A DNA stretch of 36,614 nt. It comes from a virus. Under the pieces are notes generated by a model, which worked only from the letters and a program-made list of their open reading frames with translations, searched no databases and was not told the origin of the DNA. The stretch lies in IMG/VR virus record IMGVR_UViG_3300042804_000010; one strand, written 5' to 3'. The translations under genes were made by a program, and so were the position numbers. This document shows, one piece after another, positions 12,846 to 29,463 of the stretch. Within the stretch, counting starts at the first letter, position 1. Each line of letters begins with the position of its first letter.

Positions 12846-13490
12846 ATGACATTAGGTGAAAAGATTAGAGAACTAAGGACAAAAAAGGGCTATTCTCTTC
12901 GAAAATTGTCGAAAATAGTTGGTTCTGCTTCTCACTCCTATATTGCCGCTATAGAACGTGGCGAAAATAACCCATCATTAAACATATTGTCAGATATCGC
13001 AAATGTTCTTGGAGTATCAACAGCTTATTTATTGGACATTTATGATAAAGAAAAGTCTGGAAATGAAAAGTTTAAGATTGATGAACATTCAGGGGAGATT
13101 TCAAAAGAGGAGATGATTAGTGTGCCGATTGTCGGAGATGTAGCAGCAGGTGAACCAATACTCGCAGACGAACATATAGAAGGATATAGACAAATGCCCG
13201 CAAAAGACATCAATGGGGAATGTTTTTTGCTCAAAATTAAAGGCGATAGCATGATCAATGCAGGGATTCATGAAAACGATTTGGTATTAATCAGACAGCA
13301 GGCAAAAGTTGAGACCGGAGATATTGCAGCTGTAATGATTGATAATGAAAATGCGACATTAAAAAGAGTTTATTTTCATGACAATTCAGTTTTGCTGCAG
13401 TCTGAAAACTTGAAATATAAGCCGATGAATATTAATAATGAAAGAGTTAAAATTATTGGTAAAGCAATAGAAGTTATTCACAAACTATAA
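12846..13490 (+). CDS. CI-like repressor (N-terminal XRE HTH plus C-terminal S24/LexA-like peptidase domain)
   Basis: N-terminus LRKLSKIVGSASHSYIAAIERGENNPSLNIL; C-terminus ...PIVGDVAAGEPILA...KGDSMINAGI...KRVY with Ser/Lys dyad spacing typical of autocleaving repressors. Confidence 0.8.
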   Translation: MTLGEKIRELRTKKGYSLRKLSKIVGSASHSYIAAIERGENNPSLNILSDIANVLGVSTAYLLDIYDKEKSGNEKFKIDEHSGEISKEEMISVPIVGDVAAGEPILADEHIEGYRQMPAKDINGECFLLKIKGDSMINAGIHENDLVLIRQQAKVETGDIAAVMIDNENATLKRVYFHDNSVLLQSENLKYKPMNINNERVKIIGKAIEVIHKL

Positions 13491-14476: not shown

Positions 14477-15622
14477 ATGCCTCATATTGAAAAAACTGCA
14501 AATGGAAAGTATAAAGCTGTCATTGAAGTTGGCGCCGGCGCCAGGCGAAAAAGAAGAACAAAAACATTCGAAAGAAAAAAAGATGCAAAAAGCTGGCAAG
14601 CTAATATGTTAGTTGATCAAGAAAAAGGCAGATATGTTTCTTCCGCATCATTAACTGTCGGTGATCATATGCTTGACTGGCTGGATAACGAGAAGAAACC
14701 GCACATCGCCACAACTACTTATGATAATTACAAAAACCGTATAAAAACTTATATTATACCCGAAATAGGATATATTCCATTGCAGGAACTGGAGCCCTTC
14801 CATATTAGCCGATTTATGGGCTATTTAAGAAAGAATGGAAGTGTCAGGAATGATGGCGGCCTGTCTGAAAATACTCTCAAGAAAATATATGTAGTGCTTA
14901 ATTCAGCGATGGAAAAGGCAGTCCAGTGGCGGTTAATAAAATATAACCCAGTCCAGGCGATTGAATCACCACAACCGAAAAAGAAAGAAGCTAAGTCAAT
15001 GAGCTTTGAGGAAGTTCAAAAATTACTTGATTCAGTTAACGATAAATTTATGCACACATTTTTGAGTTTTGCTGTCCTTACCGGAATGAGAAAAAGTGAA
15101 ATGCTTGGCCTAGAGTGGTCAGAAGTTGATTTAGAGAATGAAACTGTCGAAGTAAAAAAGCGATTAGTTGTTAATCAAAATAGTGATCAGGGAATTGAGC
15201 ATGAAGAAGCGACAAAGCGAGAAGCCAGCAGAAGAGTGATTGCGATTCCTTCGAAACTGGCAAAAATATTGAAAAATTATAAGGTCCATCAAACAGAATT
15301 AAGGCTGCAGCTGGCGGATGAATATAATGATGAAAAGCAATTTGTTTTCTGTAAGTCTGACGGGAATCCTTATTATCCGTCAACAATTACTAGAAATGCA
15401 AAAAAGGCCATACTCAGAGCTGATTTAAGCTCCGAATACAGCCTTCATACATTGCGCCATACATTCGCTACCTTGCAACTTAAAACCGGGACAGATGCCA
15501 AAACTATACAAGAAATGCTCGGTCATGGGAATATCTCCACTACTATGGATATATACTCTCATGTTGATATTGACATGCAGAAAGAAGCCGCAAAGAAATT
15601 AGAAAATGAGATTGTTATTTAG
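14477..15622 (+). CDS. int: Tyrosine integrase (site-specific recombinase)
   Basis: C-terminal catalytic pattern ...HTLRHTFATLQL...LGHGNISTTMDIYSHV (R...HxxR...Y) and N-terminal SAM-like domain. Confidence 0.85.
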   Translation: MPHIEKTANGKYKAVIEVGAGARRKRRTKTFERKKDAKSWQANMLVDQEKGRYVSSASLTVGDHMLDWLDNEKKPHIATTTYDNYKNRIKTYIIPEIGYIPLQELEPFHISRFMGYLRKNGSVRNDGGLSENTLKKIYVVLNSAMEKAVQWRLIKYNPVQAIESPQPKKKEAKSMSFEEVQKLLDSVNDKFMHTFLSFAVLTGMRKSEMLGLEWSEVDLENETVEVKKRLVVNQNSDQGIEHEEATKREASRRVIAIPSKLAKILKNYKVHQTELRLQLADEYNDEKQFVFCKSDGNPYYPSTITRNAKKAILRADLSSEYSLHTLRHTFATLQLKTGTDAKTIQEMLGHGNISTTMDIYSHVDIDMQKEAAKKLENEIVI

Positions 15623-16132: not shown

Positions 16133-16507
16133 ATGATTATCAAATTAATTTTAGAACAATTCAAAAGCATTGAGCGGAATTATCAAGGTTCAGAAAATTA
16201 TCATCAAAATGAGATTGTGAAGGTTGTTGACCCAGATAGTGAATTTTATGGAGCAACAGGAAAATACAAAGGGTTAAAAGAAAGAAAAATACCACAAGAT
16301 ATTTACGAAGTTGAAATTATATCTTACCTCTGGAAAGTTATGACTTTCAAAGAGGCTTCAGAAAAATATGATGTGGCAGTATCAACATTAAGACATAGAG
16401 CCTCAGACGGAAGATTCGAAGATGGTGATATTAGGAAGTCGGGCAAAACTTGGTTAGTCACAAAATCAGCAATGGACCGGATATACGGAGGTGCAAAAAA
16501 TGACTGA
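16133..16507 (+). CDS. HTH-containing protein (possible excisionase-like DNA-binding domain)
   Basis: RBS AAAGGAGGA; C-terminal ...MTFKEASEKYDVAVSTLRHRASDGRFEDGDIRKSGKTWLV resembles excisionase/MerR-type HTH; lies between int and the candidate attP. Confidence 0.45.
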   Translation: MIIKLILEQFKSIERNYQGSENYHQNEIVKVVDPDSEFYGATGKYKGLKERKIPQDIYEVEIISYLWKVMTFKEASEKYDVAVSTLRHRASDGRFEDGDIRKSGKTWLVTKSAMDRIYGGAKND

Positions 16508-16837: not shown

Positions 16838-16887
16838 TGGTGCGCCCGACAGGATTCGAACCTGTGGCCTACGGATTAGAAGTCCGT
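16838..16887 (-). other. 3' half of a tRNA-Arg(UCU)-like sequence (anticodon arm, variable loop, T-arm, acceptor 3' strand, CCA); candidate attP core
   Basis: Minus-strand read ACGGA-CTTCTAA-TCCGT AGGCC ACAGG-TTCGAAT-CCTGT CGGGCGC A CCA; the upstream 5' part has only weak acceptor complementarity (GCGCAAG) and no D-arm, so it is not a complete tRNA. Confidence 0.6.
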
Positions 16888-16939
16888 AAGAGGTGAAATC
16901 TTGCGCTTTCTTATGTTTTCTTTTGTTGCGACATTTAGT

Positions 16940-16968: not shown

Positions 16969-17017
16969 GACTTTTTGAAAAAATATTTATTCTGATGTTT
17001 TCTTAAATTTTGGCACG

Positions 17018-17040
17018 AACTCGGCACTTCCTACATTATA
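17018..17040. repeat. Direct repeat copy 2 (ttttggcacgaactcggcacttc)
   Basis: About 19 of 22 positions identical to copy 1, with an exact TCGGCACTT 9-mer; the two copies bracket the promoter, tRNA fragment and terminator. Confidence 0.5.
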
Positions 17041-17187
17041 TATAGTGATTAATTGTGCTTGTTATATTCTTTAGCAGCATCAATCAGCTTTTGCTCAAAG
17101 TCTAACTTTTTCTTACCGAGCAATTCTCTACTGGTACGCGGCCTGTATTCAGCTTTTAGATTTTCTCCAAACTCATCATAATCGAAT

Positions 17188-17493
17188 TTATTTTGACTTG
17201 CTTCGAAACTGGCCTACCACATTCATTAGATCAACTATGACATCTATAGCTTTGTCGACTAACCCCATCACAGTCTCTTTTTTGAAAGGAAGATCTACAG
17301 TATTATCTGCTGCATCATAGACGGCTTCGACTAATTCAACAATTGCTCTCTTCTTTTCCGGCCCATGCTTCTTCCCATCGTCAGTGTCAGCCTCTTCAAA
17401 AATTTCAACGAGTTCTTTAACTTCTTTAAGTACTCCAAAAGCCACCTGAAAAACAGTCCAAATTTTACTAATTGTAGTTAACATATTTAACAT
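17188..17493 (-). CDS. Putative holin (N-terminal TM helix, charged C-terminal domain)
   Basis: 101-aa ORF with N-terminal hydrophobic LTTISKIWTVFQVAFGVL; last gene of the lysis cassette. Confidence 0.5.
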   Translation of the reverse strand: MLNMLTTISKIWTVFQVAFGVLKEVKELVEIFEEADTDDGKKHGPEKKRAIVELVEAVYDAADNTVDLPFKKETVMGLVDKAIDVIVDLMNVVGQFRSKSK

Positions 17494-17511
17494 CTCCTTT
17501 TAGTTTGATAA

Positions 17512-17904
17512 TTATCTATTATCCCATCTTGCTTTGTAACCGCGAACATCACAATGAACAAAACTATTATATTTTCCTATACCATCAAAACCAGCTTTTT
17601 CAGCAAAACTTGCCATTACATCTGCATCAACCCCAGCTGGCAACCTTACATCAGCTGCAGTTCCTTCCAGATGTTGAGATTTTTTTGCACCTCCTATCTT
17701 TTGATTATAAGCTGGAGTTCTGTAGCCTGAGTTAATTATAAGCGGTGTATCTTTACCTTTGTGATCAGAAACTAGCCCTCTCAGTATTTCTAGCTTTTTT
17801 GGAAGCTCTGGGTCTAGCTTAACTGATTGGGTTTCATCCCGGCATTGAAATTCCCTTAAATTAAAATGTTTAGTTATTTGAAAATCATTTACTGACATTT
17901 GCAT
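17512..17904 (-). CDS. Endolysin, peptidase M15 family (zinc D-Ala-D-Ala carboxypeptidase-like)
   Basis: ...FNLREFQCRD...INSGYRTPAYNQKIGGAKKSQHLEGTAADV...HCDVR: His/Asp zinc-ligand pattern of M15 peptidases. Confidence 0.75.
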   Translation of the reverse strand: MQMSVNDFQITKHFNLREFQCRDETQSVKLDPELPKKLEILRGLVSDHKGKDTPLIINSGYRTPAYNQKIGGAKKSQHLEGTAADVRLPAGVDADVMASFAEKAGFDGIGKYNSFVHCDVRGYKARWDNR

Positions 17905-18143
17905 TAACCTCCCATCAATTTTACAGCCATCCCAACAATCATACTAGACATTACAGTTATCATTACTGTAATAGTCCAAGTTGGTCTGCCCTGTAAATTA
18001 TCAATAATTTTAGCTATGTCTTGTTTCATATTTTGTATATCTCCCTCATCAATATTGTTAATATCTTTTTTTAATGATCTTCCAAACTCACATCCTTCTT
18101 TGTTTAGCGTTTCTGGATTGATTTCTGCGTGTCCATTCGCCAT
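17904..18143 (-). CDS. XhlA-like holin-associated membrane protein
   Basis: 79 aa; N-terminal charged/coiled region and C-terminal TM helix WTITVMITVMSSMIVGMAV; abuts the endolysin gene. Confidence 0.55.
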   Translation of the reverse strand: MANGHAEINPETLNKEGCEFGRSLKKDINNIDEGDIQNMKQDIAKIIDNLQGRPTWTITVMITVMSSMIVGMAVKLMGG

Positions 18144-18237
18144 AATTTCACCTCAAAATTTGTTTATTATCTATTTGTTAATTATTTACTTTTAAGTAAA
18201 TAAGTCCGCTTAAAAAGTTTATTTCCACTGGGTAAAT

Positions 18238-19332
18238 CTATATGCTTTTTAATTTTAGCCGGTCGCCTAAATCCAATTGCTCCAGTATATGATCATCTAG
18301 TTTGTTTATCACTGACATTTTTAAATTATAACTATCGCAATGTTTAATTATTCCCAAGTAGGAATTAACACTGGCATTAATATCCTCGATATCCACCTTC
18401 CCTTCAAAATATTTTTTATTAAGATATTTAAATCGCTTTTTCATTTTCTTTTTAGTACTTTTCCTCAATTTGCTATAACTCGGATATAGAACATATCCGC
18501 AAAAATCTATTCCTTCATTCACATGTCCAACAGTAGTTTTATTATTAAGCTGCAGCTGGAGATAATCTTCTAAAAATATTTCTATTTCCTGTCTGATTGT
18601 ATGAAGCTTCTTTTTATCTTTTCCCAAAAGTACAAAGTCATCCATATACCGGACATAGTATTTTACTTTCAAGGTGTGCTTTACAAACTTATCTAAAAAA
18701 TCAAGATAAATATTTGCAAAAAGCTGGCTCATTAAGTTGCCGATTGGTGTGCCAATCCCTTTAACTTTTTTATTTTCAAAGAAGTGATCACCTAACTGGA
18801 TACCAAACTCACCATCTTCACTTTTGATTATCTGCCAGATTAATTCCAATGTATCTCTGCAGCTAATTTTCCTTTTTATTAACTGAAATAATCTTTTATG
18901 AACTATCCTGTAAAAATATTTTGAAACGTCTGCTTTTAAAAAATATGTTTTTCCGGGCTTTCGGTCCATTATCCTTAACTTGTCCTGTAATTGATATGCA
19001 GTGAAATGAGTACCCTTTCCTCTGCGACAAGCCCCGCTATATCTGTAAAATGCCTTATCAAATATCGGGTAAAGCTTTCGATATATGCTCCACTGGACCA
19101 CTCTGTCTTTAAAAGGCAAAGCCATGATCAGTCTTTTCTTTGGCTCATAGACATAAAACTGCCTGTATTTTCCCTGTTCATATGTTTTCCACATTAATTC
19201 ATTCTGTATCTCAATTAAATTTCTCTCTAAATTATAATTAAATTTCAGCACTTCCGGTTTGTATCTTTTCCTCTTTTGAGCTTTTTGAGTTGCTATTTCT
19301 AAATTATGATAATCAGTAATTTTCTCAAACAA
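18238..19332 (-). CDS. Diversity-generating retroelement reverse transcriptase
   Basis: RT motifs FYVYEPKKRLIMALPFKDRVVQ, GTHFTAY, IGTPIGNLMSQLFANIYL (DGR-type SQ in place of the usual QGxxxSP), YVRYMDDFVLLG (YxDD); about 360 aa, as for Bordetella phage Brt; apparent TTG start at 19332. Confidence 0.9.
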   Translation of the reverse strand: MFEKITDYHNLEIATQKAQKRKRYKPEVLKFNYNLERNLIEIQNELMWKTYEQGKYRQFYVYEPKKRLIMALPFKDRVVQWSIYRKLYPIFDKAFYRYSGACRRGKGTHFTAYQLQDKLRIMDRKPGKTYFLKADVSKYFYRIVHKRLFQLIKRKISCRDTLELIWQIIKSEDGEFGIQLGDHFFENKKVKGIGTPIGNLMSQLFANIYLDFLDKFVKHTLKVKYYVRYMDDFVLLGKDKKKLHTIRQEIEIFLEDYLQLQLNNKTTVGHVNEGIDFCGYVLYPSYSKLRKSTKKKMKKRFKYLNKKYFEGKVDIEDINASVNSYLGIIKHCDSYNLKMSVINKLDDHILEQLDLGDRLKLKSI

Positions 19333-19586
19333 ATTTTTGACTGTCTTAGGAATAAATAATCACCACTCTCTATATATTAGGTGAAATATTCAAGCCCGCT
19401 CAAATGAGAACGGGCTCATAACTAATCGTGACAGCTTTCGATATTTCGCTACTTGCTATCTAATTAGTAATTCATATGTTTTCCTGGAGGGACCTCAAAA
19501 TGTATCTCAGGAAGGACTAAAGGCCTGTTCATCTTTTTGAACACTGCAGCAGAGGCCTTGACCCCATACTGTCTGATAAATTTGTA

Positions 19587-19703
19587 GATGAGCACAGGCG
19601 CCACGCACGCCAATGTTAGTGTTCACGTTCCACGGGTTATTGTTCGAGTTGACCGTCCGAGCACCGCAGATGCTACCATTGTTGAAGTTGCCACCGGCGA
19701 GGA
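19587..19703 (-). repeat. DGR template repeat (TR), 117 bp
   Basis: 102 of 117 positions identical to VR (20143-20259); all 15 differences are at TR adenines on the coding strand; carries 11 AAY codons in the VR frame. Confidence 0.9.
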
Positions 19704-19727
19704 CCAACGCCCTTAGCCCTATAAAAT

Positions 19728-20081
19728 TTATTTTTTATTTTCACAAGACTTAATCCAGCCACCCAGAAGGCGGCCAATTTCGTCTATTTTTTTGACTACA
19801 ATTTCATGTTTTCTTATAGATAAAAAATGCATATCTTTAGCAAGTCTAATTTTAACTTTTAGCTTTTTAAGTTCATCATCTATCCGGTTTAAAAATCTTA
19901 TCTTACTTCCTCGAGCTTCATTTGCATCTATTATCAATTCCATAATTCTATCTAATTTATTTTTGATTTTTGTACACATTGCAAACTTTTCTCTTTTTGG
20001 AAAATTATCAATTACTGGGTAAAAATAAAGAGTAAAGTCATAATGTTTTCTAAATATCACGAGATCATCTGTGTCTGCCAA
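19728..20081 (-). CDS. avd: DGR accessory variability determinant (Avd)
   Basis: 117-aa basic helical protein located between the target gene and TR, as in canonical DGRs; TTG start preceded by AAGGAG with a 7-nt spacer. Confidence 0.75.
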   Translation of the reverse strand: MADTDDLVIFRKHYDFTLYFYPVIDNFPKREKFAMCTKIKNKLDRIMELIIDANEARGSKIRFLNRIDDELKKLKVKIRLAKDMHFLSIRKHEIVVKKIDEIGRLLGGWIKSCENKK

Positions 20082-20131
20082 ATCATCACTCCTTCAAGTT
20101 CTAAACCTAACCAAAAACCATTATCAGATTA

Positions 20132-21169
20132 TCAGGCACTCTGATGAGCACAGGCGCCACGCACGCCAACGCTAGTGTTCACGTCCCACGGGCGAAAGTC
20201 CGAGCTGACCGTCCGAGCACCGCAGAGGCCACCACTGCTGAAGCCGCCACCGGCGAGGAGGCCAATAATAGCCACATTATTTTGCATGTAAGCTTCACCA
20301 TGCTGATAACCGCTGTCTTTACCTGCATTAAGCACATCATACCAACTGAATGAAGTTGAGCCAGTATTTCTATAAGTATACTCGTCTAATCTTTCCCAAA
20401 GGTTACCAGCGCAATCTACAAGGTTATAGCAAGAAACTGCTTGTTCTACAGTTCCAGTTGAAGTTCGACCTGAATTACTTGAACTAGACCAAGCGGCATT
20501 ATTATCATTTTCGTGGCCTTCTGGGCTACCATAGGCAGCCATTAACCATTCCTGCCTGGTTAATTTTCTTTTGTTGACATTTGCAAGACCCCTAATGAAA
20601 TCATAATCATTATAACCCTCAGTTCCTGAGACCGGGGTCGCATTGTATTCACTCACAAGTTCAGTTTCCGGCCAGGTTCCGCTGCCTTCACTTGCAATAT
20701 ATATATCAGCCCAAAAGTTTGATACCTTGACCATTCCAGTAGGGTCACAGGCAGGTCTGTAGTTCAATGACCAGACTGAGTTTGGCAGTATATTAACTGC
20801 AATTGAGGCTGTATCATCATATCTTTGAGCGTTTGTTCTGATGCGGCCATAATGAAAACCACCAATTTTTCTGCTATTATTTTCTGTATACCCGTCTGGA
20901 TAAGTAGAGTTGATAGAAATAACAAAATCGGGCTCTGCATCAGCTGATGGCTGCAAAGCATATATATAATAGTTTTCGCCAAGCGTGAAACTTACAAAAC
21001 TGCCGTCGCTATCAGCTTCAGTCAAAATAGTATCAGTTTCTTTTTTGAGATTCTGTCTATCAATTCTCAAAGCTAATGGAGGTACTGTAACTTCATCAGC
21101 TGCACTCTTTTCAATATGGCCTTTGAAATTGTAGAATGAAGGTGAATCAGCTCCAACAAAAGTTAACAT
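20132..21169 (-). CDS. DGR target protein: distal tail/receptor-binding protein with C-terminal C-type-lectin/FGE-like fold carrying the VR
   Basis: C-terminal ...SCYNLVDCAGNLWERLDEY...LLAGGGFSSGGLCGARTVSSDFRPWDVNTSVGVRGACAHQSA; VR occupies the last about 39 codons; last gene of the tail module. Confidence 0.85.
   Translation of the reverse strand: MLTFVGADSPSFYNFKGHIEKSAADEVTVPPLALRIDRQNLKKETDTILTEADSDGSFVSFTLGENYYIYALQPSADAEPDFVISINSTYPDGYTENNSRKIGGFHYGRIRTNAQRYDDTASIAVNILPNSVWSLNYRPACDPTGMVKVSNFWADIYIASEGSGTWPETELVSEYNATPVSGTEGYNDYDFIRGLANVNKRKLTRQEWLMAAYGSPEGHENDNNAAWSSSSNSGRTSTGTVEQAVSCYNLVDCAGNLWERLDEYTYRNTGSTSFSWYDVLNAGKDSGYQHGEAYMQNNVAIIGLLAGGGFSSGGLCGARTVSSDFRPWDVNTSVGVRGACAHQSA
20143..20259 (-). 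repeat. DGR variable repeat (VR), 117 bp, at the 3' end of the target gene
   Basis: Aligns to TR 19587-19703; the coding-strand 3' end is a GC-rich invariant segment ggcgtgcgtggcgcctgtgctcatc (IMH-like). Confidence 0.9.
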
Positions 21170-21474
21170 TGATCAATCACCTCCTGGACTTCATCAATTG
21201 TAAAACCTAATCGAAATATTTTTCCGTTTGGGTTATCAACAAGTTTGAATTGCACTATCTTTTCTGTCCCTTTTTCTTCCTGAGTCATAACCTTGTACTC
21301 AGGCTCAGGACCAGTTCTATCAGATTCTGCAGCAAGTTCTTTGTCAAACTCGTATTTTTTGGCTGTATTAAACAGCCCCTGGTATGCTCTTTTGACTTTC
21401 GCTGTATAACCAAAATCACTAATTATATTTTCATAGTCTTGTCTTGAGTTAAGCACTTTCGGGAATCCTCTCAT
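21163..21474 (-). CDS. Hypothetical tail-associated protein (103 aa)
   Basis: ORF between the tail tip genes and the DGR target; stop overlaps the target start. Confidence 0.45.
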   Translation of the reverse strand: MRGFPKVLNSRQDYENIISDFGYTAKVKRAYQGLFNTAKKYEFDKELAAESDRTGPEPEYKVMTQEEKGTEKIVQFKLVDNPNGKIFRLGFTIDEVQEVIDQC

Positions 21475-21477
21475 ATA

Positions 21478-22179
21478 TTATCTAACCTCCATTGCTAATG
21501 AGCCGTCAATCATTTTTAGCTCGTAAATATCGCCTGTTGTCTCATCTATCAAGTTGTTTTCTGGATTTGAGCCGTCCGGGCCAGCCTTCACAAGCCCATA
21601 TTCGACTTTCTGAATTGTTGCATCTATCACTGTATCAAACAGCACTATAGTTGTTTCATCATTGACTCCATCATAATTTGCTGATTCTACAGCTGAATAA
21701 ACTGAGCTTGCGTCTAGAGTTGCTTTGATTTTTCTATTAGTGACGAATGTATCTATATAGTCACCAGGCACTGTAAAAGTATCAGCGCTTACATAAGTTG
21801 CAGTTAATGCGCTGTCAATCCATTCAGTCATATTTTCAGCAAGGTCAGATTTGATAGTTCCGTCTTCATTAAGAGCAACTTCTAGCCGCTCCCAGAGAGT
21901 GTTTTTTGTTCCTCTCGAAACTCTTAAATCCTTAATATAAGGATTATATTCATTCTGCAGCACCCACTCAGACCCATTCCAAAACTTCATTTTTGCATTT
22001 GCCCAACCTTCCGAAATGTCTAACCAGGGCATCCCTTGATAAGTATCAGTTGGCGCTGTTTCTCCTGCAAATTGAGTAACAATAGCTAAAAAGTTGCCAT
22101 ATAAAACTTGTTTAAGGCCGGGACCATTAGCGTCAAGCCCCTCTTTATTTGTCGTTCTTATATCAAAATCTTGAGACAT
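21478..22179 (-). CDS. Hypothetical tail fibre/baseplate-associated protein (233 aa)
   Basis: ORF immediately downstream of the J-like gene; structural role inferred from position only. Confidence 0.45.
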   Translation of the reverse strand: MSQDFDIRTTNKEGLDANGPGLKQVLYGNFLAIVTQFAGETAPTDTYQGMPWLDISEGWANAKMKFWNGSEWVLQNEYNPYIKDLRVSRGTKNTLWERLEVALNEDGTIKSDLAENMTEWIDSALTATYVSADTFTVPGDYIDTFVTNRKIKATLDASSVYSAVESANYDGVNDETTIVLFDTVIDATIQKVEYGLVKAGPDGSNPENNLIDETTGDIYELKMIDGSLAMEVR

Positions 22180-22191
22180 GTCACCACTCCT

Positions 22192-24933
22192 TTAATATCC
22201 TTCGATTATAATCTTTTCTGCAGTTCCTCCAACATCATTATTGTTAATGTCAAATATCTGCACATCTACACTATCATTTGTTTTATTCGTGAAATTAGCA
22301 TATTTCATTGTTGATCCATCTTGTAGCAAGTAGTAATTATATGATCTTGGCACTTCATAATACTCTACTCCGTAATCACTGTAATTAATTGTTGTTCCGC
22401 CTACGGGTACTGACAGATTATCAATTTCTAACTCTAAATCAGGCACATCAAAAAATTGTTTAATTTCATTAAGCTCAAATTCAGCAGTTTCAGTTTCCAG
22501 CTGAAAATTAAATTTAAACTGGCAGTATCTAAATTTGTATTCTCCAGTCATGTATTCTTGCCAGTCCGACCATTCAACATTATCGTCAGAAAATCTAACA
22601 TATATTTCAGTCTCATAGATAGCAGGTGGATTGTCTAAACTGTTATTAGGAAAATCATCCAATCCACGATTGGGGAAACTCAACAAGCTTAATCCTAAGT
22701 CTTGGAAAAACCAATCTTTTTTGAGCCTTATATCTGTTCGGCCAACTCTGACTGTATCAATAATTTCTGTCATATATTCAGCGCTAAAATCATAATCAGG
22801 CAAACCGTCTGCAAAAGCAGGAATATCAGGCCAATCATCAAGATTATAGCCGGCTAAGTCTTCTAAATTATACATGTGGAAGAATGCTATCTTGCCGTTA
22901 ATATTATCTATATTATCTAGTGTTGCATTATCTATATAATCAAGTTCATTTCTTTCGATAATTATATTAAGCTCCTGGCCAGTACCTGAAACTTCAAAAA
23001 TTACTGATGTGAAATCACTTGAATACTGTCTAACTCTATCAATTGTCTTAATCATATACATATGTGTTCCATCAATTTCATTTTCAGAAGTCCATCTGTC
23101 TCCAGTAAGTTTAGTCCCGAGAACTTCTCCATTATCCCAGTCTGTTCCTTTTCTAATTTCATAACCTAAAACATCTGGCTCATTTACTTCCTGCCATTTG
23201 AATATTAATTTTGCACCTTTTTGAGCGACTTGGAAGGTGCCAGGTGCTGCAGGTTTATTATCTTTACCTGATATAACTATTTTTCTTGAAGTAACTCCAG
23301 AACTTGTAATACCTCTATATTTTGAAACTGTCCGGACTCTTACAATATAATGAGAATTAACTTTTAAATTAGATATTTCAAAGCTGTCAGCTTCTGTTTC
23401 TCCGGCTATTCTATAACTTTTACCATCTTCTGAATAATCAATTACTGCATGATCAACTCTTTCATCATCAGGAATATCAAAATCTACGATTAAATTACTG
23501 ATTAAATTCCCATCCATGGTAGTATAACCGTATTCAGAAACAGAAAGATTATTTACTTCATTAGGAGCTTCAAAAGGATTCTTAAATTCAGAGCCGTAAT
23601 TCTCCTGCTGCACAACTCCATCATCAGTATAAATAGATTCATTATATTCAAGAGCAGTAATAGTCATATTATGATCTTCGGCTTCTTCTATTTCCATAAT
23701 TCGGAAAGGTTTATCAACCCAACCTGGTCTTTTATGGGTAACTAATATTTTATCGCCGACTTCTGCTTCAATATCTTTTATGCTTGCTCCAAAACTGATT
23801 ATTTGAGTGCAAAACTTTGATTTCTTTTGATAATATCTAGCTTCTCGCCCTGCTTGACTAAAACGATTAATACCATTAAGAGTTATGGTTTTAATCGATT
23901 CTCCAGGAACACTATTATCAATAAATCTCGCTCCAATAGTTTCAAAATTTTCAGCTGGATCTGTATATTCAACGACTACTTCTCTAAGTCTTTCTTTGCG
24001 TGATGTTCCGCGCCTTGCAAAACTGCCTACAATTATATTGTCAGTTTCTTCATTATCTGAAAATACAAAGCTTTGAGTTGCTATATCTGGCTTATCTATT
24101 TTAATTTTTAATTTTCCATCGGACCAAATTAAAAACGCTCTAAAAGTTGATAACATTTCATTTAGAATGTCTAATGCTGAACTTTTAGCATCAATGACAA
24201 AATCTAATTCAAACCTTTTTTTTCCATCGACAAGCTGATCAGCATATTCTGCAGCTTCTTTGAAACTTTCTAGATCGATAAAAGCATCAGAAACACCAAA
24301 ACCAAATCTCATTTTGCTTATAAAATCTAAAATACACCACGCGGGATTATTACTATATTTAGTAACCCAACTGCTGCCAGTCCAAACTCTTACATGCCTA
24401 CCCTTGATTATTGCGGTCATAGTTGGAGTTCCTGATGTTTCTAATTTATTAGCGTCAAGAGTTGTCGAATAGTGGGCAAGGAAAGGAAATGTTTGACCGC
24501 GTTCATTTTTCGACCAGGCAGATTGTTTTCTGTAACCTAATTTAGTTTCTGCGCTAATTGTTTTATCGTCAGCTTTAATTTCTTCTATTGATTCAATTGG
24601 CCCTTCTGAAATTCCAACCTGAATGTCCATAAGGTTATCATTTTCGCCGCTGATTTTTTGATTAATTATGTTACCAGCTACAAGATTTCTGCCATAGACA
24701 ACCGGAACTGGTATCTGGTGACTTTTGGTATTGCTTATCGGTCCAAACGAATATGTTGGCGAATTCTTTGATTGATTCATACTTTCTTGAAATTCTTTGG
24801 CCTCTTTATAATTATCGTAAGAGTTACCGACTGAAAAACCTAACATTGCTCCGGCTGCTATAGTCATCCCTCCGACTGTCGATGCAGCTGCTGCAGCTCC
24901 TGCTGCTATTCCGACTAGTGCTCCTACTCCCAT
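22192..24933 (-). CDS. Host-specificity protein J-like central tail fibre/tip protein
   Basis: 913 aa; follows the M/L/K-like genes as in lambda-type tail tips; Gly/Ala-rich hydrophobic N-terminus, large beta-rich body. Confidence 0.6.
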   Translation of the reverse strand: MGVGALVGIAAGAAAAASTVGGMTIAAGAMLGFSVGNSYDNYKEAKEFQESMNQSKNSPTYSFGPISNTKSHQIPVPVVYGRNLVAGNIINQKISGENDNLMDIQVGISEGPIESIEEIKADDKTISAETKLGYRKQSAWSKNERGQTFPFLAHYSTTLDANKLETSGTPTMTAIIKGRHVRVWTGSSWVTKYSNNPAWCILDFISKMRFGFGVSDAFIDLESFKEAAEYADQLVDGKKRFELDFVIDAKSSALDILNEMLSTFRAFLIWSDGKLKIKIDKPDIATQSFVFSDNEETDNIIVGSFARRGTSRKERLREVVVEYTDPAENFETIGARFIDNSVPGESIKTITLNGINRFSQAGREARYYQKKSKFCTQIISFGASIKDIEAEVGDKILVTHKRPGWVDKPFRIMEIEEAEDHNMTITALEYNESIYTDDGVVQQENYGSEFKNPFEAPNEVNNLSVSEYGYTTMDGNLISNLIVDFDIPDDERVDHAVIDYSEDGKSYRIAGETEADSFEISNLKVNSHYIVRVRTVSKYRGITSSGVTSRKIVISGKDNKPAAPGTFQVAQKGAKLIFKWQEVNEPDVLGYEIRKGTDWDNGEVLGTKLTGDRWTSENEIDGTHMYMIKTIDRVRQYSSDFTSVIFEVSGTGQELNIIIERNELDYIDNATLDNIDNINGKIAFFHMYNLEDLAGYNLDDWPDIPAFADGLPDYDFSAEYMTEIIDTVRVGRTDIRLKKDWFFQDLGLSLLSFPNRGLDDFPNNSLDNPPAIYETEIYVRFSDDNVEWSDWQEYMTGEYKFRYCQFKFNFQLETETAEFELNEIKQFFDVPDLELEIDNLSVPVGGTTINYSDYGVEYYEVPRSYNYYLLQDGSTMKYANFTNKTNDSVDVQIFDINNNDVGGTAEKIIIEGY

Positions 24934-26532: not shown

Positions 26533-29463
26533 TTAAGATTTTTTAATAGCTTGTCTAAGAGTTCCATTTCTCATAATATCTCGGCCTACAACATTGATAA
26601 TTGCATCCGGATTTCTACTAACATATTCAGCAAATGATTGAGTATCAATGGCAGTAATGTCGAATATATTTATTGGCGCTGAACCACCACCATTTTGTAA
26701 TCCTTTTACCTGGTCTTTATTTAGCACATATTCGCCATTTTCTAAAATTGCAGGCACTTCATTACTTTTAAGGCCGATTCCTCCACCTTCGTGATACCTC
26801 TGCATTTTTGCAATAGCATTAGCTGGGCTAACAAAACCTCCTTCATGGAAGGTTGGAAGATTTAAACCGCCTAAAGCATAATTAACTATAGGGCCAACAA
26901 CAGCTTTTTGTAATACCATTGAAGCAATTTGATCAGCTATATTGTCGAATACATCTCCTAAGTCTTCGCCTCTAGCTATTGCATCTGATAAGCCAGTTAT
27001 TAAATCATCTTTCCAATCAACAAATTTCTGGTTAGCTTCTTCGATTTCTAGTCCTAAATCAACAAAAGCATCAGTCATCCAGTTGATAGATTTGGCTCCT
27101 TCTTTTGAATCGCTTTCTCCAGTATAGCCAGTAGCTGCATTTCTTCCCATTCTTCCGAGATTGGCAAGATTAGTTGAAAAGTCATTAGGATCGCTTTCTG
27201 CTTTTAATGTTTCATTTATTTTTTCTCTAATTCGCCGCCATTCATCAGTGTCTTTTTCATATTGTTTTAGACGCTCTCTTAAATATTTTCGATATTGAGT
27301 TTCAGATATTTTACCCATTTCAAAGCGGTTTTCCATTTTCTCTCTTTCAAGTTGAAGTTCTTTTTTATTATATTTTTCAATAATATCTAATCTTTTTTCT
27401 CGATAAATTTTTGTGAGAGTGGCTGTATCCTGGCCTTTTTCCTGCATCAATTCTTTTTCAGCTTCATACTGCTGCTCTAATTGAGCAAGTTCTCTTTCTT
27501 TACCATCTTTTTTGAGAAGCTCAAGCTCATTTTGCAATTGTTCTTCCCTTTCAATAGCAGCCTCTTTGCGGCGCTCTGCTTCCTCTTCTTCCTGTTCGTT
27601 AACTTCTTCAAGATAATCTTTATACTGGTTATTGTAGAATTGCTCAACCATTTCTTTTAATTTTTCTTTTTGTTCAGCTGTTGCATCTTTGAGATTATCA
27701 ATTCTTTCAAATTCACCATACATTTTATTTTCTAATTTAGCCCAGGCTTTTTCTGAGTCATTAGACATATTTTCTACTTCTTGCTCAAAATTATATGATT
27801 CTATTTCAGCTCTTAATTCATCAATGTAATTTTTGTAATCGCTTTGATCAGATGTTGAACCTCCGCCACCGCCACCAGATAAATCTACTTCTTCTAATTC
27901 ATTGTTAGTTTCTTCAATTTCTTGCAAAGCCTTTTCAGTCTCATCTAAATCTTTTTTTAGATTATTCAATCTGTTTTGTGATTCGCTTATAGAATATTTT
28001 TCACCTATTATGGAATCTTCGCTTGCCCCATTTCTGCGAGCCTCTAATCTCCGTTCTTCTTTTTGGATGTCAGATTCAAGTAGGTCTTTTCTTCTTTTAA
28101 GTTCGGCTTCGTTTAGCGATTTAACATTTCGCTCCATAAATTTAAGCTGCTTGTTTCCCTCGTAAATTCTTTTTGCAAGAAGGCCAAAGCCTACTATAAC
28201 AGCTCCGCCGATCATATAAGGATTTAAAGCTGCAGTTAATCCGCCGGCTCCGTTAATTACATTTGTTAAAGAGCTCAATGTAAGAGATAAGTTTCCGGTA
28301 ATGCTTAATACTGGTCCTAAAGCAGCCGCCACTCCTGCACCAAAAATAACCATGTCTTGCTCTTCTTCTGATAAGTCATTGAAAGCATCTACTACATCTA
28401 TGACATTTTCCTTTATTTGAGTCATTATTGGTTCTAGTTCTGCACCTAATTCAGCTAAAGATTGCTCTAAATCATAATTAGCTTCTGCACTTTCTACAAG
28501 TGCTTCATTATTATCTTTATACTGCTCATATACATCTGATAGTCCGGTATTGGCAAGAGTCTGCATTACATAATCAGTTGCTTTGCCGTTTTCTTTTGCA
28601 GTCTGCAGCCCTTCATTAAAATCATCTAAATTAATACCTAATCTTGACAGCATTTCATCAAATTGACCAACTGACTGTCCCGATCCAATAGTTTCCTGGA
28701 TTGATTCAGATAAATTTTCAAACTTCAATGTGTCTGGGAACTGTATAACAGCACCAGCTATATCATCAATAACACTTGATAATTGTTCATCTCTGAAACC
28801 TGCAGCTAACAAACTGGATAATCCCTCAACGTTAGAATCTAATTCGCCAGTAACGGCGTTAAGATCTGACATATATCCGTGCATTTCATCAATACTTACA
28901 TTTGCAGTTCGAGCGTTATTTTCAAGAGTCGAAACTTCTTTTCTAAAATCTCTTGTTCCTTCTGTAAGCGCAAAAAAGGCAGCTGTAATAGGTAAAGTGA
29001 CATGAGTATTAAGGTTATCACCGATTCCTTTCATTCTATTCCCGAACTTTTCCATGCCGTCCGCAGCTTTTTGCATCTTTCTGCTAAATTCATTCGCTTT
29101 TCTTTGGGTTTTCTCGAGTTCATCTGTAAAACTTTCAAGCTGATCTTCAGTTTTAATCAGCTCTCTGCGATATTCCCGGTATTCCTTTTCTCCAACATCT
29201 CCAGACTTATATTGTTTCTGCATGTCTTTTTCAGCTTGTTTTAATACATCAAGTTTTTCTTTAGTTTGCTCAACTCTTTCTGTAAGAATATCCTGTTTTT
29301 GAGCCCAGAGTTCAACTGAGTCTGGATTGAATTTTAATGCTCGATTAACCTGGTATAATTCCCGGCCAATTTTCCTTGATTGAGAGCGAATATCTTTAAG
29401 AGCTTTGTCAAGACCTTTCGTCGATGCTCCAATTTCTACAGTTATACCTTTTTTCTGAGCCAC
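26533..29463 (-). CDS. Tail tape measure protein
   Basis: 976 aa, long coiled-coil/charged central region, GGGGGG linker, hydrophobic segments; GTG start preceded by GGGAGGTGA; sits between chaperone and tip genes. Confidence 0.85.
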   Translation of the reverse strand: MAQKKGITVEIGASTKGLDKALKDIRSQSRKIGRELYQVNRALKFNPDSVELWAQKQDILTERVEQTKEKLDVLKQAEKDMQKQYKSGDVGEKEYREYRRELIKTEDQLESFTDELEKTQRKANEFSRKMQKAADGMEKFGNRMKGIGDNLNTHVTLPITAAFFALTEGTRDFRKEVSTLENNARTANVSIDEMHGYMSDLNAVTGELDSNVEGLSSLLAAGFRDEQLSSVIDDIAGAVIQFPDTLKFENLSESIQETIGSGQSVGQFDEMLSRLGINLDDFNEGLQTAKENGKATDYVMQTLANTGLSDVYEQYKDNNEALVESAEANYDLEQSLAELGAELEPIMTQIKENVIDVVDAFNDLSEEEQDMVIFGAGVAAALGPVLSITGNLSLTLSSLTNVINGAGGLTAALNPYMIGGAVIVGFGLLAKRIYEGNKQLKFMERNVKSLNEAELKRRKDLLESDIQKEERRLEARRNGASEDSIIGEKYSISESQNRLNNLKKDLDETEKALQEIEETNNELEEVDLSGGGGGGSTSDQSDYKNYIDELRAEIESYNFEQEVENMSNDSEKAWAKLENKMYGEFERIDNLKDATAEQKEKLKEMVEQFYNNQYKDYLEEVNEQEEEEAERRKEAAIEREEQLQNELELLKKDGKERELAQLEQQYEAEKELMQEKGQDTATLTKIYREKRLDIIEKYNKKELQLEREKMENRFEMGKISETQYRKYLRERLKQYEKDTDEWRRIREKINETLKAESDPNDFSTNLANLGRMGRNAATGYTGESDSKEGAKSINWMTDAFVDLGLEIEEANQKFVDWKDDLITGLSDAIARGEDLGDVFDNIADQIASMVLQKAVVGPIVNYALGGLNLPTFHEGGFVSPANAIAKMQRYHEGGGIGLKSNEVPAILENGEYVLNKDQVKGLQNGGGSAPINIFDITAIDTQSFAEYVSRNPDAIINVVGRDIMRNGTLRQAIKKS

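What the first reader, a model, noticed from the sequence alone, without database searches (positions are those of the whole stretch)
18238..21169. Complete diversity-generating retroelement (target-VR, avd, TR, RT) at the distal end of the tail module
Four co-oriented minus-strand elements occur in the canonical BPP-1-type order: a 345-aa target gene whose last 117 bp is a VR, a 117-aa Avd-like gene, a 117-bp TR 25 bp downstream, and a 364-aa RT with DGR-type motifs (IGNLMSQ, YVRYMDDF). It sits between the tail genes and the lysis cassette, where it could reprogram receptor specificity.
Basis: partly seen in the sequence, partly recalled or inferred. Interest (0 to 1): 0.9.

Follow-up and report, generated by a model that had tools for sequence, protein, structure and literature searches.

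The report
Complete phage diversity-generating retroelement, confirmed
This is a real, complete and apparently active diversity-generating retroelement that rewrites the tip of a tail receptor-binding protein in a temperate phage (probable host Halanaerobium); it is a well-understood kind of system, so it is a solid but ordinary find with a few unusual details.

Summary
All elements lie on the minus strand. They are an Mtd-like target gene (21169-20132) with a 117-nt VR (20259-20143), an Avd gene (20081-19728), a 117-nt TR (19703-19587), a 254-nt spacer and a reverse transcriptase (19332-18238). TR and VR differ at 15 positions. All 15 are TR adenines at codon positions 1 or 2 (P = 2.4e-12). 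The RT, Avd and target each find the Bordetella phage BPP-1 proteins as their best solved-structure relatives.

I add four points:
- Seven related contigs carry the identical TR but seven different VRs, with 77 adenine-site changes against 2 others. Their flanking genes are only 82-98% identical, so homing is recent or ongoing.
- The spacer holds the BPP-1-type RNA elements: a stop duplex, an Avd-binding stem-loop, a template:primer duplex and an RT-binding stem-loop. These are supported by covariation and by a covariance model trained only on distant relatives (one window hit, E = 3.7e-16).
- The GC-rich hairpin usually found downstream of VR is absent.
- The RT probably starts at an AUU codon (19353).

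Verdict: a new member of a known kind. Interest is modest.

The parts
20132..21169 (-). Target (variable) gene, 345 aa. It is an Mtd-like tail receptor-binding protein.
   Evidence: Pfam mtd_2nd, E = 7.8e-25. PDB Mtd 1yu4, E = 1.5e-12, aligned over residues 52-342, which includes the VR. PHROG 11262 'tail protein', E = 8e-51.
20143..20259 (-). Variable repeat (VR), 117 nt. It encodes the C-terminal 38 residues and ends 8 nt before the stop codon.
   Evidence: 15 of 15 differences from TR fall at TR adenines; seven different VRs occur in relatives that share the same TR.
20118..20136 (-). CCTGATAATCTGATAATGG, a VR-specific sequence just 3' of VR. [quoted passage not shown]
   Evidence: ATCTG occurs 1.8 times per 75 nt downstream of VR in 68 loci, against a background of 0.087, with spacings of 7-8 nt or multiples. 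The functional assignment is an inference.
20106..20119 (-). Conserved G-rich motif GGTTTTTGGTTAGG, at the place where relatives carry a GC-rich hairpin with a GRNA loop. Its function is unknown.
   Evidence: there is no GC-rich inverted repeat within about 190 nt downstream of VR. The motif is conserved in L089 and L023 (GGTTTTGGGTTGGGG).
19728..20081 (-). avd, the accessory variability determinant, 117 aa. It has a TTG start with an AGGAG ribosome-binding site 7 nt upstream.
   Evidence: NCBIfam DivGenRetAVD, E = 2e-30, 105 bits against a cut-off of 80. Pfam bAvd, E = 5e-28. PDB 4dwl and 8ub7_B. PHROG 3206 'Avd protein of DGR'.
19709..19720 (-). AGGGCTAAGGGC, the 5' strand of the long-range duplex with the spacer. 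This duplex is the analogue of the BPP-1 duplex that stops reverse transcription (the 'cPRT Stop').
   Evidence: helix 1: 98.8% of cells are paired in 54 sequences, and 9 of 12 pairs show changes on both sides.
19587..19703 (-). Template repeat (TR), 117 nt, with 26 adenines. It has 15 variable codons, 10 of them AAY. None of them can mutate to a stop codon. About 6e14 protein variants are possible.
   Evidence: TR is 100% identical in relatives whose flanking genes are 82-89% identical.
19586..19595 (-). Predicted first templated base (G109 of TR, at 19595), followed by the template strand UGCUCAUCU of the template:primer duplex (19594-19586).
   Evidence: 8 of 9 pairs form, with three compensatory double changes relative to L089, L023 and L090. 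The region is homologous to BPP-1 TR G117/UGCCCAUC. A115 (19589) never varies in the 7 VRs. The initiation site is an inference.
19547..19571 (-). Analogue of the Avd-binding stem-loop. It has a stem of about 10 bp with one bulged U and a CAAG tetraloop.
   Evidence: helix 3: all 8 pairs covary; the single-sequence minimum-energy fold recovers it; alignment to the covariance model. The analogy is to Sp3-33 of BPP-1.
19526..19534 (-). Primer strand AGAUGAACA. The predicted priming adenosine is at 19526 (spacer position 61) and is followed by a G, as for A56/G57 in BPP-1.
   Evidence: and for the BPP-1 model. Which nucleotide primes is inferred, not shown.
19513..19524 (-). GCCTTTAGTCCT, the 3' strand of the stop duplex.
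   Evidence: helix 1.
19482..19512 (-). Stem-loop that directly follows the stop duplex. It ends in an A-run (AAAACA), which is a candidate for A-minor contacts.
   Evidence: helix 4 (89.8% paired). fold. for the BPP-1 counterpart.
19469..19481 (-). Conserved single-stranded stretch AAACAUAUGAAUU, the analogue of the BPP-1 'Thumb Ring'.
   Evidence: The sequence is conserved across alignments A2 and A3 (consensus AAAAAAnUGAAUU). The role is inferred.
19421..19468 (-). Long stem-loop with internal loops, the analogue of the RT-binding element.
   Evidence: helices 5-7: the outer stem is 99.4% paired and all 6 of its pairs covary..
19392..19417 (-). Extra hairpin of about 10 bp (GAGCCCG...CGGGCTT), specific to this clade, between the spacer RNA core and the RT start. 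It is not followed by a T-run.
   Evidence: fold. There are compensatory changes in L018 (G-C to A-U) and a wobble pair in L002. The scan did not call it a terminator. It is absent from relatives with spacers of 172-214 nt.
19351..19364 (-). GGTGA ribosome-binding site (19364-19360) and, 6 nt later, an in-frame ATT (19353-19351), the probable non-canonical start codon of the RT.
   Evidence: The codons between ATT and TTG 19332 are conserved as protein (IPKTVKN), and the differences in L003 are all synonymous. L089 and L083 have no canonical start codon at all. Relatives have ATG or TTG at the homologous codon.
18238..19332 (-). DGR reverse transcriptase. It is 364 aa from TTG 19332, or 371 aa if translation starts at ATT 19353.
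   Evidence: PDB bRT 8ub7_A, E = 2.3e-52. Pfam RVT_1. PHROG 1423, E = 1e-130. In the alignment, window residues match bRT K29, F66, R74, I76, D138, I181, G182, Q187, D215 and D216.
21163..24933 (-). Upstream context: a J-like central tail fibre or tip protein (22192-24933) and two small ORFs of unknown function (21478-22179 and 21163-21474). The second overlaps the start of the target gene.
17188..18143 (-). Downstream context, the lysis region: a 79-aa protein with a C-terminal hydrophobic segment (17904-18143), an M15 peptidase endolysin (17512-17904) and a 101-aa ORF (17188-17493).

Best explanation
This is a complete BPP-1-type diversity-generating retroelement in a temperate siphovirus. 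The probable host is Halanaerobium.

Proposed mechanism, with each step marked as shown or inferred:
1. An RNA is transcribed that spans the last bases before TR, TR itself and the roughly 165-nt spacer core. This step is inferred.
2. The RNA folds. The stretch just upstream of TR pairs with the spacer to form the stop duplex. The 3' end of TR pairs with the spacer to form the template:primer duplex. One stem-loop docks on the Avd pentamer and a long stem-loop docks on the RT. The helices are shown by covariation. The docking is inferred from the BPP-1 cryo-EM structure.
3. The RT-Avd complex primes cDNA synthesis from a spacer adenosine, predicted at 19526. It starts copying at TR G109 (19595), misincorporates opposite template adenines, and stops at the stop duplex. 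This step is inferred by homology.
4. The cDNA replaces VR in the target gene. This recodes up to 15 codons at the C-terminal lectin-fold tip of the tail receptor-binding protein, giving about 6e14 possible variants while TR stays unchanged. The outcome is shown by comparison with relatives. The integration mechanism is unknown.

The benefit is rapid change of receptor specificity.
For: Anatomy and adenine-only TR/VR differences.

Protein identities:
- RT to bRT, E = 2.3e-52, with the catalytic residues and the residues that contact the template base conserved.
- Avd above the curated cut-off.
- Target homologous to Mtd through the VR.

Activity:
- Seven contigs with an identical TR carry seven different VRs. 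There are 77 changes at adenine sites against 2 elsewhere, and 23 of the 26 adenine sites vary.
- The non-VR part of the target gene is only 82-98% identical between these contigs. The non-adenine positions of VR are therefore being kept identical to TR.

RNA:
- A structure of 44 pairs tested on 54 sequences is 88.8% paired, against 38-50% for slid controls. The covariation score is 0.64 against 0.10-0.18, and 0 of 500 shuffles reach it.
- A covariance model built only from relatives with RT identity of 65% or less gives a single full-length hit in the window, at 19418-19593(-), 55.7 bits, E = 3.7e-16.
- The template:primer duplex has 8 of 9 pairs, with three compensatory double changes.
- The single-sequence fold has a z-score of -3.3 and recovers the same helices.

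Gene order matches BPP-1. The mechanistic model comes from bioRxiv 10.1101/2023.10.23.563531.
Against: - There is no GC-rich inverted repeat with a GRNA loop downstream of VR. In BPP-1 this element is needed for efficient homing (PMC3240598), and nearly all relatives have it.
- The RT has no canonical start codon with a ribosome-binding site.
- No promoter can be assigned. Promoter-like sites are no more frequent than in shuffled sequence.
- Activity is inferred by comparing different contigs, not from variation among reads within one population.
- The priming nucleotide and the initiation site are assigned by homology only.
- The family RNA model does not detect the BPP-1 spacer. The RNA correspondence with BPP-1 is therefore architectural and does not extend to sequence.
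Confidence: 0.92

Rival explanations
1. The element is a fossil DGR. The parts are recognisable, but homing no longer occurs, for example because the target-site hairpin was lost and the RT start codon decayed. On this view the VR differences are historical.
For: The GC-rich hairpin is absent. The RT has no canonical start codon with a ribosome-binding site. In the same genus, the Halanaerobium salsuginis locus L117 holds only the C-terminal third of a related RT and gives no spacer RNA hit.
Against: - All three ORFs are intact and the catalytic residues are conserved.
- TR is 100% identical and the spacer 95-98% identical across contigs whose neighbouring genes are 82-89% identical.
- Each lineage has its own VR, with 77 adenine-site changes against 2 others. 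At the background divergence of about 18% seen in the most diverged of these contigs, a dead VR would have collected about 16 non-adenine changes.
- The ATT or ATC codon and its ribosome-binding site are conserved through the whole clade, and the differences in the codons downstream of them are synonymous (L003). That pattern indicates use, not decay.
Confidence: 0.06
2. The RT belongs to a different retroelement (group II intron, retron, or a defence RT such as Drt or Abi), and the 117-nt repeat is an ordinary duplication of the end of a tail gene.
For: NCBIfam lists group_II_RT_mat, Drt3a, retron St85 and Drt5 as the only named RT hits. The library returned no DGR RT model.
Against: - All those hits are far below their curated cut-offs: 122 against 300, 54 against 200, 42 against 235, and 30 against 550.
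- bRT scores 182 bits against 67 for the best group II RT.
- No intron RNA or retron RNA family was found at Rfam gathering thresholds.
- An Avd gene lies between VR and TR.
- An ordinary duplication would not place 15 of 15 differences on adenines (P = 2.4e-12).
Confidence: 0.01
3. The DGR is active, but this clade recognises its target in a different way. A VR-specific linear motif (the phased ATCTG repeats, the G-rich element, or both) replaces the DNA hairpin or cruciform.
For: The hairpin is absent from both the window clade and the Halanaerobium prophage clade, yet VRs are diversified. The ATCTG array is about 21-fold enriched downstream of VR across the family. The G-rich motif is conserved between clades that share 72% RT identity.
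Against: This is correlation only. Published work calls the hairpin stimulatory, not essential (PMC5758913), so its loss may simply lower efficiency. The window keeps only about two of the repeats. The conserved motifs could instead be transcription or translation signals for avd.
Confidence: 0.2

Closest known systems
Bordetella phage BPP-1 DGR (mtd-avd-TR-brt), the prototype
   Same: - Gene order and genomic position are the same: tail fibre, target, avd, TR, spacer, RT, small ORFs, endolysin, then a tRNA-related attachment site.
- RT, Avd and target each have the BPP-1 protein as their best solved relative.
- The 3' ends of the two TRs are nearly the same sequence (GGCGCCTGTGCTCATC against GGCGTCTGTGCCCATC), with the same G as predicted initiation site and the same CA|G primer context.
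- The set and order of spacer RNA elements are the same.
   Different: - RT identity is only moderate, and Avd similarity is weak at sequence level (E = 5e-4).
- The spacer is 254 nt against 140 nt, with an extra 3' hairpin.
- avd ends 24 nt before TR, so the upstream strand of the stop duplex is intergenic instead of lying in the last avd codons.
- There is no CGGGGCC-GAAA-GGCCCCG type hairpin after VR.
- The family RNA model does not hit the BPP-1 spacer.
- The host is a low-GC Bacillota anaerobe and the virion is a siphovirus, whereas BPP-1 is a podovirus of a proteobacterium. The BPP-1 morphology is from my own knowledge.
DGRs of Bacillota prophages and phages with the same RT/Avd/spacer-RNA lineage, for example Bacillus phage BalMu-1 and prophages of Desulfotomaculum-group, Caloramator, Thermoanaerobacterium and Halanaerobium saccharolyticum
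   Same: RT identity is 45-72%. The layout is the same: avd, TR, spacer, RT. The spacer RNA family is the same (model R1). ATCTG repeats follow VR in these relatives as well.
   Different: Most of these relatives diversify an FGE-sulfatase or TaqVP-type lectin-fold protein (PDB 5vf4, E = 1e-111; 31 of 41 targets). Only the window clade and the Halanaerobium prophage clade carry an Mtd-type target (7 of 41). Most relatives have the GC-rich hairpin with a GRNA loop and a canonical ATG or TTG start for the RT, which the window lacks.
Group II intron reverse transcriptases and maturases
   Same: They are the closest non-DGR RTs. They share the N-terminal extension, fingers, palm and thumb.
   Different: The score is far below the family cut-off. 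There is no intron RNA, no maturase, DNA-binding or endonuclease domain. The RT has the IGxxxSQ motif, and the element has Avd, TR and VR.

Membership tests
Diversity-generating retroelement (DGR) | A TR/VR repeat pair whose differences are confined to adenines of TR. | tested here: met
   Over 117 nt, 15 of 15 mismatches fall at TR adenines, P = 2.4e-12. Across 7 VRs that share one TR, there are 77 adenine-site changes against 2 others.
Diversity-generating retroelement (DGR) | An RT of the DGR clade, with the I/LGxxxSQ motif in place of QGxxxSP, a YMDD motif, and closer similarity to bRT than to group II or retron RTs. | tested here: met
   bRT 8ub7_A scores E = 2.3e-52, against 1.5e-17 for the best group II RT. 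IGNLMSQ and YMDD are present. Window residues match bRT K29, F66, R74, I76, D138, I181, G182 and Q187. No explicit phylogeny was built.
Diversity-generating retroelement (DGR) | An Avd accessory protein (four-helix bundle) encoded next to TR. | tested here: met
   NCBIfam DivGenRetAVD, an equivalog model, scores 105 bits against a cut-off of 80. Pfam bAvd, E = 5e-28. PHROG 'Avd protein of DGR'.
Diversity-generating retroelement (DGR) | VR lies at the C-terminus of a target protein with a C-type lectin fold, and the variable codons are AAY-type. | tested here: met
   Sequence homology to Mtd crystal structures runs through the VR. 10 of the 15 variable codons are AAY, and no stop codon is reachable. 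The fold itself was not modelled.
Diversity-generating retroelement (DGR) | A GC-rich IMH (initiation of mutagenic homing) segment at the 3' end of VR, with a differing counterpart after TR. | tested here: met
   The last 27 nt of TR and VR are identical and GC-rich (GGCGTGCGTGGCGCC...). The sequences diverge completely immediately after CTCATC. Functional IMH activity cannot be tested here.
Diversity-generating retroelement (DGR) | A GC-rich inverted repeat of 7-10 bp with a 4-nt GRNA loop, 4-34 bp downstream of VR (Guo et al. 2011, PMC3240598). | tested here: not met
   Only a 6-bp AT-rich repeat with an 11-nt loop is present. The fold z-score is -0.45. Most relatives have the hairpin. Published work describes it as stimulatory, not essential, so this does not exclude membership.
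Diversity-generating retroelement (DGR) | Cis-acting RNA around TR: an upstream:spacer stop duplex, an Avd-binding stem-loop, a template:primer duplex and an RT-binding stem-loop (Handa et al., bioRxiv 10.1101/2023.10.23.563531). | tested here: met
   Covariation test. Independent covariance model hit, E = 3.7e-16. Template:primer duplex with compensatory changes.
Diversity-generating retroelement (DGR) | Demonstrated mutagenic retrohoming, meaning cDNA synthesis and VR replacement. | not testable with these tools
   Only comparative evidence is available.
Group II intron | An RT/maturase above the family cut-off together with an intron ribozyme RNA. | tested here: not met
   TIGR04416 scores 122 bits against a cut-off of 300. 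No group II intron RNA was found in the Rfam scan of the window.
Retron or defence RT (Drt) | An RT above the family cut-off, together with an msr/msd RNA or effector partners. | tested here: not met
   Retron St85 scores 42 against 235, Drt3a 54 against 200, and Drt5 30 against 550. No retron RNA was found.

The most novel reading that the evidence does not exclude
In this Halanaerobium-phage clade, the DGR homes efficiently without the DNA hairpin or cruciform thought to be a near-universal part of DGR target sites. It would instead use a linear VR-specific signal: the phased ATCTG heptads that follow VR throughout this DGR family, the conserved G-rich motif at 20106-20119, or both. If so, the ATCTG array would be a previously undescribed target-recognition element of a large family of Bacillota phage DGRs.
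Probability: 0.2. Interest if true: 0.5.

Novelty: new member of a known kind. Interest (0 to 1): 0.3.

Why it matters
The element shows how a temperate phage, probably of Halanaerobium, can keep changing its receptor-binding protein. That bears on phage-host dynamics wherever these hosts dominate.

For DGR biology, the locus and its roughly 120 relatives offer four things:
- A natural series of seven VR variants written from one unchanged TR.
- A covariation-supported RNA model showing that the RNA architecture solved for BPP-1 is conserved in a distant Bacillota lineage.
- A natural case of an apparently active element without the target-site hairpin.
- Evidence that one RT/Avd/RNA lineage has been combined with two different kinds of target protein.

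None of this changes the current understanding of DGRs.

Tried and rejected
- Near-identity DNA search of 17000-22500 against the phage collection found nothing.
- ARAGORN found no tRNA, although Rfam did find one.
- Testing the template:primer duplex by duplex energy against mononucleotide shuffles was uninformative, with a median z of +0.3. Pairing between a purine-rich and a pyrimidine-rich strand survives shuffling. Explicit pairing with compensatory changes settled the question instead.
- In the sequence-based alignment A2 the template:primer helix scored only 66% paired because of register shifts.
- My first guess at the middle stem of the RT-binding hairpin was one column out of register and was corrected.
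- The promoter and terminator scans gave counts no higher than in shuffles. They did not call the clade-specific 3' spacer hairpin a terminator.
- The family RNA model did not reach the BPP-1 spacer.
- Literature searches for Halanaerobium DGRs and for the AATCTG motif found nothing relevant. A term search within the 2017 genomic survey for multiple TRs also found nothing.
- I did not model the structure of the target protein.
- I rejected a third, remote VR in the window.
- I rejected GTG or TTG codons overlapping the ribosome-binding site as RT starts in L025 and L023.


Full report
**1. The observation**

The ORF map of 16-24 kb shows four co-oriented elements on the minus strand:
- a 345-aa ORF at 21169-20132
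- a 117-aa ORF at 20081-19728
- a 364-aa ORF at 19332-18238
- a 117-nt direct repeat between them, at 19587-19703 and 20143-20259

The two repeat copies align without gaps. They differ at 15 positions, and at every one the copy next to the RT (TR) has an adenine. With 26 adenines in 117 nt, the chance that 15 of 15 differences fall on adenines is 2.4e-12. All 15 are at first or second codon positions of the 345-aa frame. A TR pattern with every A replaced by N matches only these two places in the window, and none of 100 shuffles gave a match.

There are three trivial corrections. VR ends 8 nt before the stop codon. The gap between avd and TR is 24 nt. The RT probably starts 21 nt further upstream (section 5).

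**2. The proteins**

- RT. It has Pfam RVT_1. Its best solved relative is bRT of the BPP-1 DGR (8ub7_A, E = 2.3e-52, 182 bits). Group II intron RTs reach about 67 bits. NCBIfam models for group II, retron St85, Drt3a and Drt5 are all far below their cut-offs. In the alignment, bRT K29, F66, R74, I76, D138, I181, G182, Q187, D215 and D216 all have identical counterparts. The paper describes these as the catalytic aspartates and the residues that contact the template base or the incoming nucleotide. The IGNLMSQ and YMDD motifs are among them.
- Avd. The 117-aa protein passes the curated NCBIfam equivalog model for DGR Avd (105 bits against a cut-off of 80) and Pfam bAvd. It also finds the BPP-1 Avd structures.
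- Target. The 345-aa protein has the Pfam 'Mtd second domain'. It aligns to the Mtd crystal structures over residues 52-342, through the VR and up to the shared C-terminal ...RG-C-H.

**3. Context**

The window is a temperate siphovirus genome. It encodes:
- a CI-like repressor (12846-13490)
- an integrase (14477-15622)
- an excisionase-like protein (16133-16507)
- an anti-repressor
- a DnaD-like helicase loader
- a tape measure protein (26533-29463)
- a J-like tail tip protein (22192-24933)
- an M15 endolysin (17512-17904)

BPP-1 has the same order: tail fibre, mtd, avd, TR, brt, small ORFs, endolysin, and then an attachment site derived from a tRNA.

No near-identical phage is in the reference phage collection. 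The nearest cultured phage RT is Bacillus phage BalMu-1 at 53% identity. The nearest genomes are Halanaerobium saccharolyticum and a Halanaerobiales MAG, both at 72% RT identity. This, together with the 35% GC content, points to a Halanaerobium host. That assignment is an inference.

**4. Evidence of activity**

IMG/VR holds about 14 contigs with 92-98% identical RTs, plus dozens of more distant relatives with the same layout and adenine-only TR/VR differences.

Among contigs that carry exactly the window's TR there are seven different VRs, counting the window's own. They differ from TR at 5-15 adenine sites each and from one another at 10-18 sites. In total there are 77 changes at adenine sites and 2 elsewhere. 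23 of the 26 adenine sites vary.

These contigs are not clones. The non-VR part of the target gene is 82-98% identical to the window, avd 88-99.8%, and the RT gene about 78-89%. TR, by contrast, is 100% identical and the spacer 95-98%. If VR evolved like the rest of the gene it would carry about 16 non-adenine changes in the more diverged contigs. It carries 0-2. The non-adenine positions of VR are therefore being repeatedly reset from TR, which is the signature of ongoing or recent mutagenic homing.

TR has 15 variable codons, 10 of them AAY. None can mutate to a stop codon. About 6e14 protein variants are possible.

**5. The RNA**

The cryo-EM study of the BPP-1 RT-Avd-RNA complex (bioRxiv 10.1101/2023.10.23.563531) defines these elements:
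- an Avd-binding stem-loop at the start of the spacer
- a duplex between the 3' end of TR and the spacer, which presents the priming adenosine
- a duplex between the spacer and the bases upstream of TR, which stops reverse transcription
- a short stem-loop followed by adenosines
- a single-stranded 'thumb ring'
- a long RT-binding stem-loop

I aligned 54 non-redundant loci from 35 nt upstream of TR to the RT start (A2) and tested an explicit 44-pair structure.
- Overall, 88.8% of cells are paired, against 38-50% when the partners are slid by 1-3 columns. The covariation score is 0.64 against 0.10-0.18, and 0 of 500 shuffles reach it.
- The long-range duplex is 98.8% paired, with changes on both sides at 9 of 12 pairs. 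In the window it joins 19709-19720 with 19513-19524.
- The outer stem of the RT-binding hairpin is 99.4% paired, and all 6 of its pairs covary.

As an independent test, I built a covariance model from 39 relatives with RT identity of 65% or less. This excluded the window's clade and the Halanaerobium prophages. The model gives exactly one hit in the 36.6-kb window on either strand: 19418-19593(-), full length, 55.7 bits, E = 3.7e-16. The single-sequence fold of the window spacer recovers the same helices (z = -3.3).

The template:primer duplex was blurred by register shifts in the sequence alignment. Written out explicitly, it is spacer AGAUGAACA (19534-19526) against UGCUCAUCU (19594-19586), with 8 of 9 pairs. 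Three pairs change on both sides in the Halanaerobium prophage clade.

This segment of TR is nearly identical to that of BPP-1. In BPP-1, cDNA synthesis starts at the G preceding UGCCCAUC and is primed by A56, which is followed by G57. By homology I predict priming from A19526, which is followed by a G, and initiation at G19595. In agreement with this, the one adenine downstream of that point (A115, 19589) never varies in the seven VRs. These last assignments are inferences.

Two features are specific to the clade. First, an extra 10-bp hairpin at 19392-19417 carries compensatory changes in close relatives but has no T-run. Second, the RT start is unusual. TTG 19332 has no ribosome-binding site. 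The seven codons upstream of it are conserved as protein (IPKTVKN), with only synonymous differences in L003. L089 and L083 have no canonical start codon at all. An ATT or ATC codon sits exactly where relatives have ATG or TTG, 6 nt after a GGTGA. An AUU or AUC start is the most economical reading. It would keep RT synthesis low.

**6. What is missing or different**

In BPP-1 and 'nearly always' elsewhere, VR is followed within 4-34 bp by a 7-10 bp GC-rich inverted repeat with a GRNA loop, which is needed for efficient homing (PMC3240598). Most relatives of the window have exactly this, typically with a GATA loop. In these relatives it is preceded by two to four phased copies of (N)ATCTG. ATCTG occurs 1.8 times per 75 nt, against 0.087 in the background, at spacings of 7-8 nt or multiples.

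The window clade and the Halanaerobium prophage clade have no such hairpin. They keep only CCTGATAATCTGATAATGG, followed by a conserved G-rich motif. The 2017 genomic survey calls the hairpin stimulatory, not essential (PMC5758913), so its absence does not remove the element from the family. It is nevertheless the one defining feature that was tested and not met.

The target also differs from the rest of the lineage. 31 of 41 targets in this RT/Avd/RNA lineage are FGE-sulfatase-type proteins like TaqVP (PDB 5vf4, E = 1e-111). Only the window's clade and the Halanaerobium prophage clade carry an Mtd-type target. So one diversification machine has been combined with different target proteins.

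**7. Verdict**

The element is a complete DGR of the BPP-1 type, very probably active, in an undescribed temperate phage. It is a new member of a known kind. I found no paper describing DGRs of Halanaerobium phages. Large surveys of public metagenomes have probably counted relatives of this element, but I did not check that.

The most novel reading not excluded is hairpin-independent target recognition through a linear VR-specific motif. I give that a probability of about 0.2.

Interest: 0.3.

Noticed in passing
L108 3830-4963; L109 3671-4971; also L059, L060, L061, L063, L064, L068: In several Lachnospiraceae-type prophages (Enterocloster aldenensis, 'Bacterium 1XD42-1'), one RT is preceded by 3-5 tandem modules with a period of about 210-315 nt. 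Each module is a TR-like segment plus a full-scoring spacer RNA (58-122 bits). The modules share the invariant scaffold segments and differ in the same patches that vary in a VR. In L108 only module 2 matches the VR with adenine-only differences (9 adenine-site, 0 other). In L109 module 1 is nearly identical to the VR. A term search of the 2017 genomic survey for multiple TRs found no mention of such arrays.
   Followed up: partly
window 16841-16906 (-): Rfam finds a tRNA-like sequence here (32.5 bits against a gathering score of 29) that ARAGORN does not call. The anticodon loop reads UCU (Arg). The D-arm is shortened and two acceptor-stem pairs are mismatched. It lies between the integrase/excisionase genes and the lysis genes, so it is probably the phage attachment site carrying the 3' part of a host tRNA gene. 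BPP-1 has a comparable site.
   Followed up: partly
window 19351-19364 (-): The RT probably starts at a non-canonical AUU codon, which is AUC in some relatives, 6 nt after a GGTGA ribosome-binding site. Relatives L089 and L083 have no ATG, GTG or TTG at all at the N-terminus.
   Followed up: yes
68 related loci, first 75 nt downstream of VR; window 20118-20136: Phased (N)ATCTG heptads, 2-4 copies with a period of 7-8 nt, lie between VR and the GC-rich hairpin throughout this DGR family. This is a 21-fold enrichment. The BPP-1 IMH contains a similar cCTGattCTTG. A literature search for the motif found nothing relevant.
   Followed up: partly
alignment A4: targets of 41 related loci: Within one RT/Avd/spacer-RNA lineage the diversified protein is of two unrelated types, sharing only about 20-25% identity. 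It is Mtd-like in the window clade and the Halanaerobium prophage clade, and FGE-sulfatase/TaqVP-like (PDB 5vf4) in the rest. The target gene and its TR have therefore been exchanged as a unit.
   Followed up: partly
L117 (Halanaerobium salsuginis ATCC 51327), match at 5001-5399: Only the C-terminal third (aa 231-363) of a closely related RT (83% identity) is present in the middle of a contig, and the spacer RNA model gives no hit. It is probably a decayed DGR remnant.
   Followed up: no
L013, L018, L019, L021: These contigs have RTs 93-98% identical to the window and spacers 94-98% identical. Their TR, however, is only about 70-73% identical, and their target is 72-75% identical and shorter (337 aa). 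This is a second target/TR allele on nearly the same RT-spacer backbone, which points to recombination at the TR-spacer boundary.
   Followed up: no
window 21163-22179 (-): Two ORFs (233 aa and 103 aa) lie between the J-like tail protein and the DGR target. They have no hit in Pfam, NCBIfam or PHROGs. The second overlaps the start of the target gene by 7 nt, which suggests translational coupling. They may be adaptor or chaperone proteins for the receptor-binding protein.
   Followed up: no
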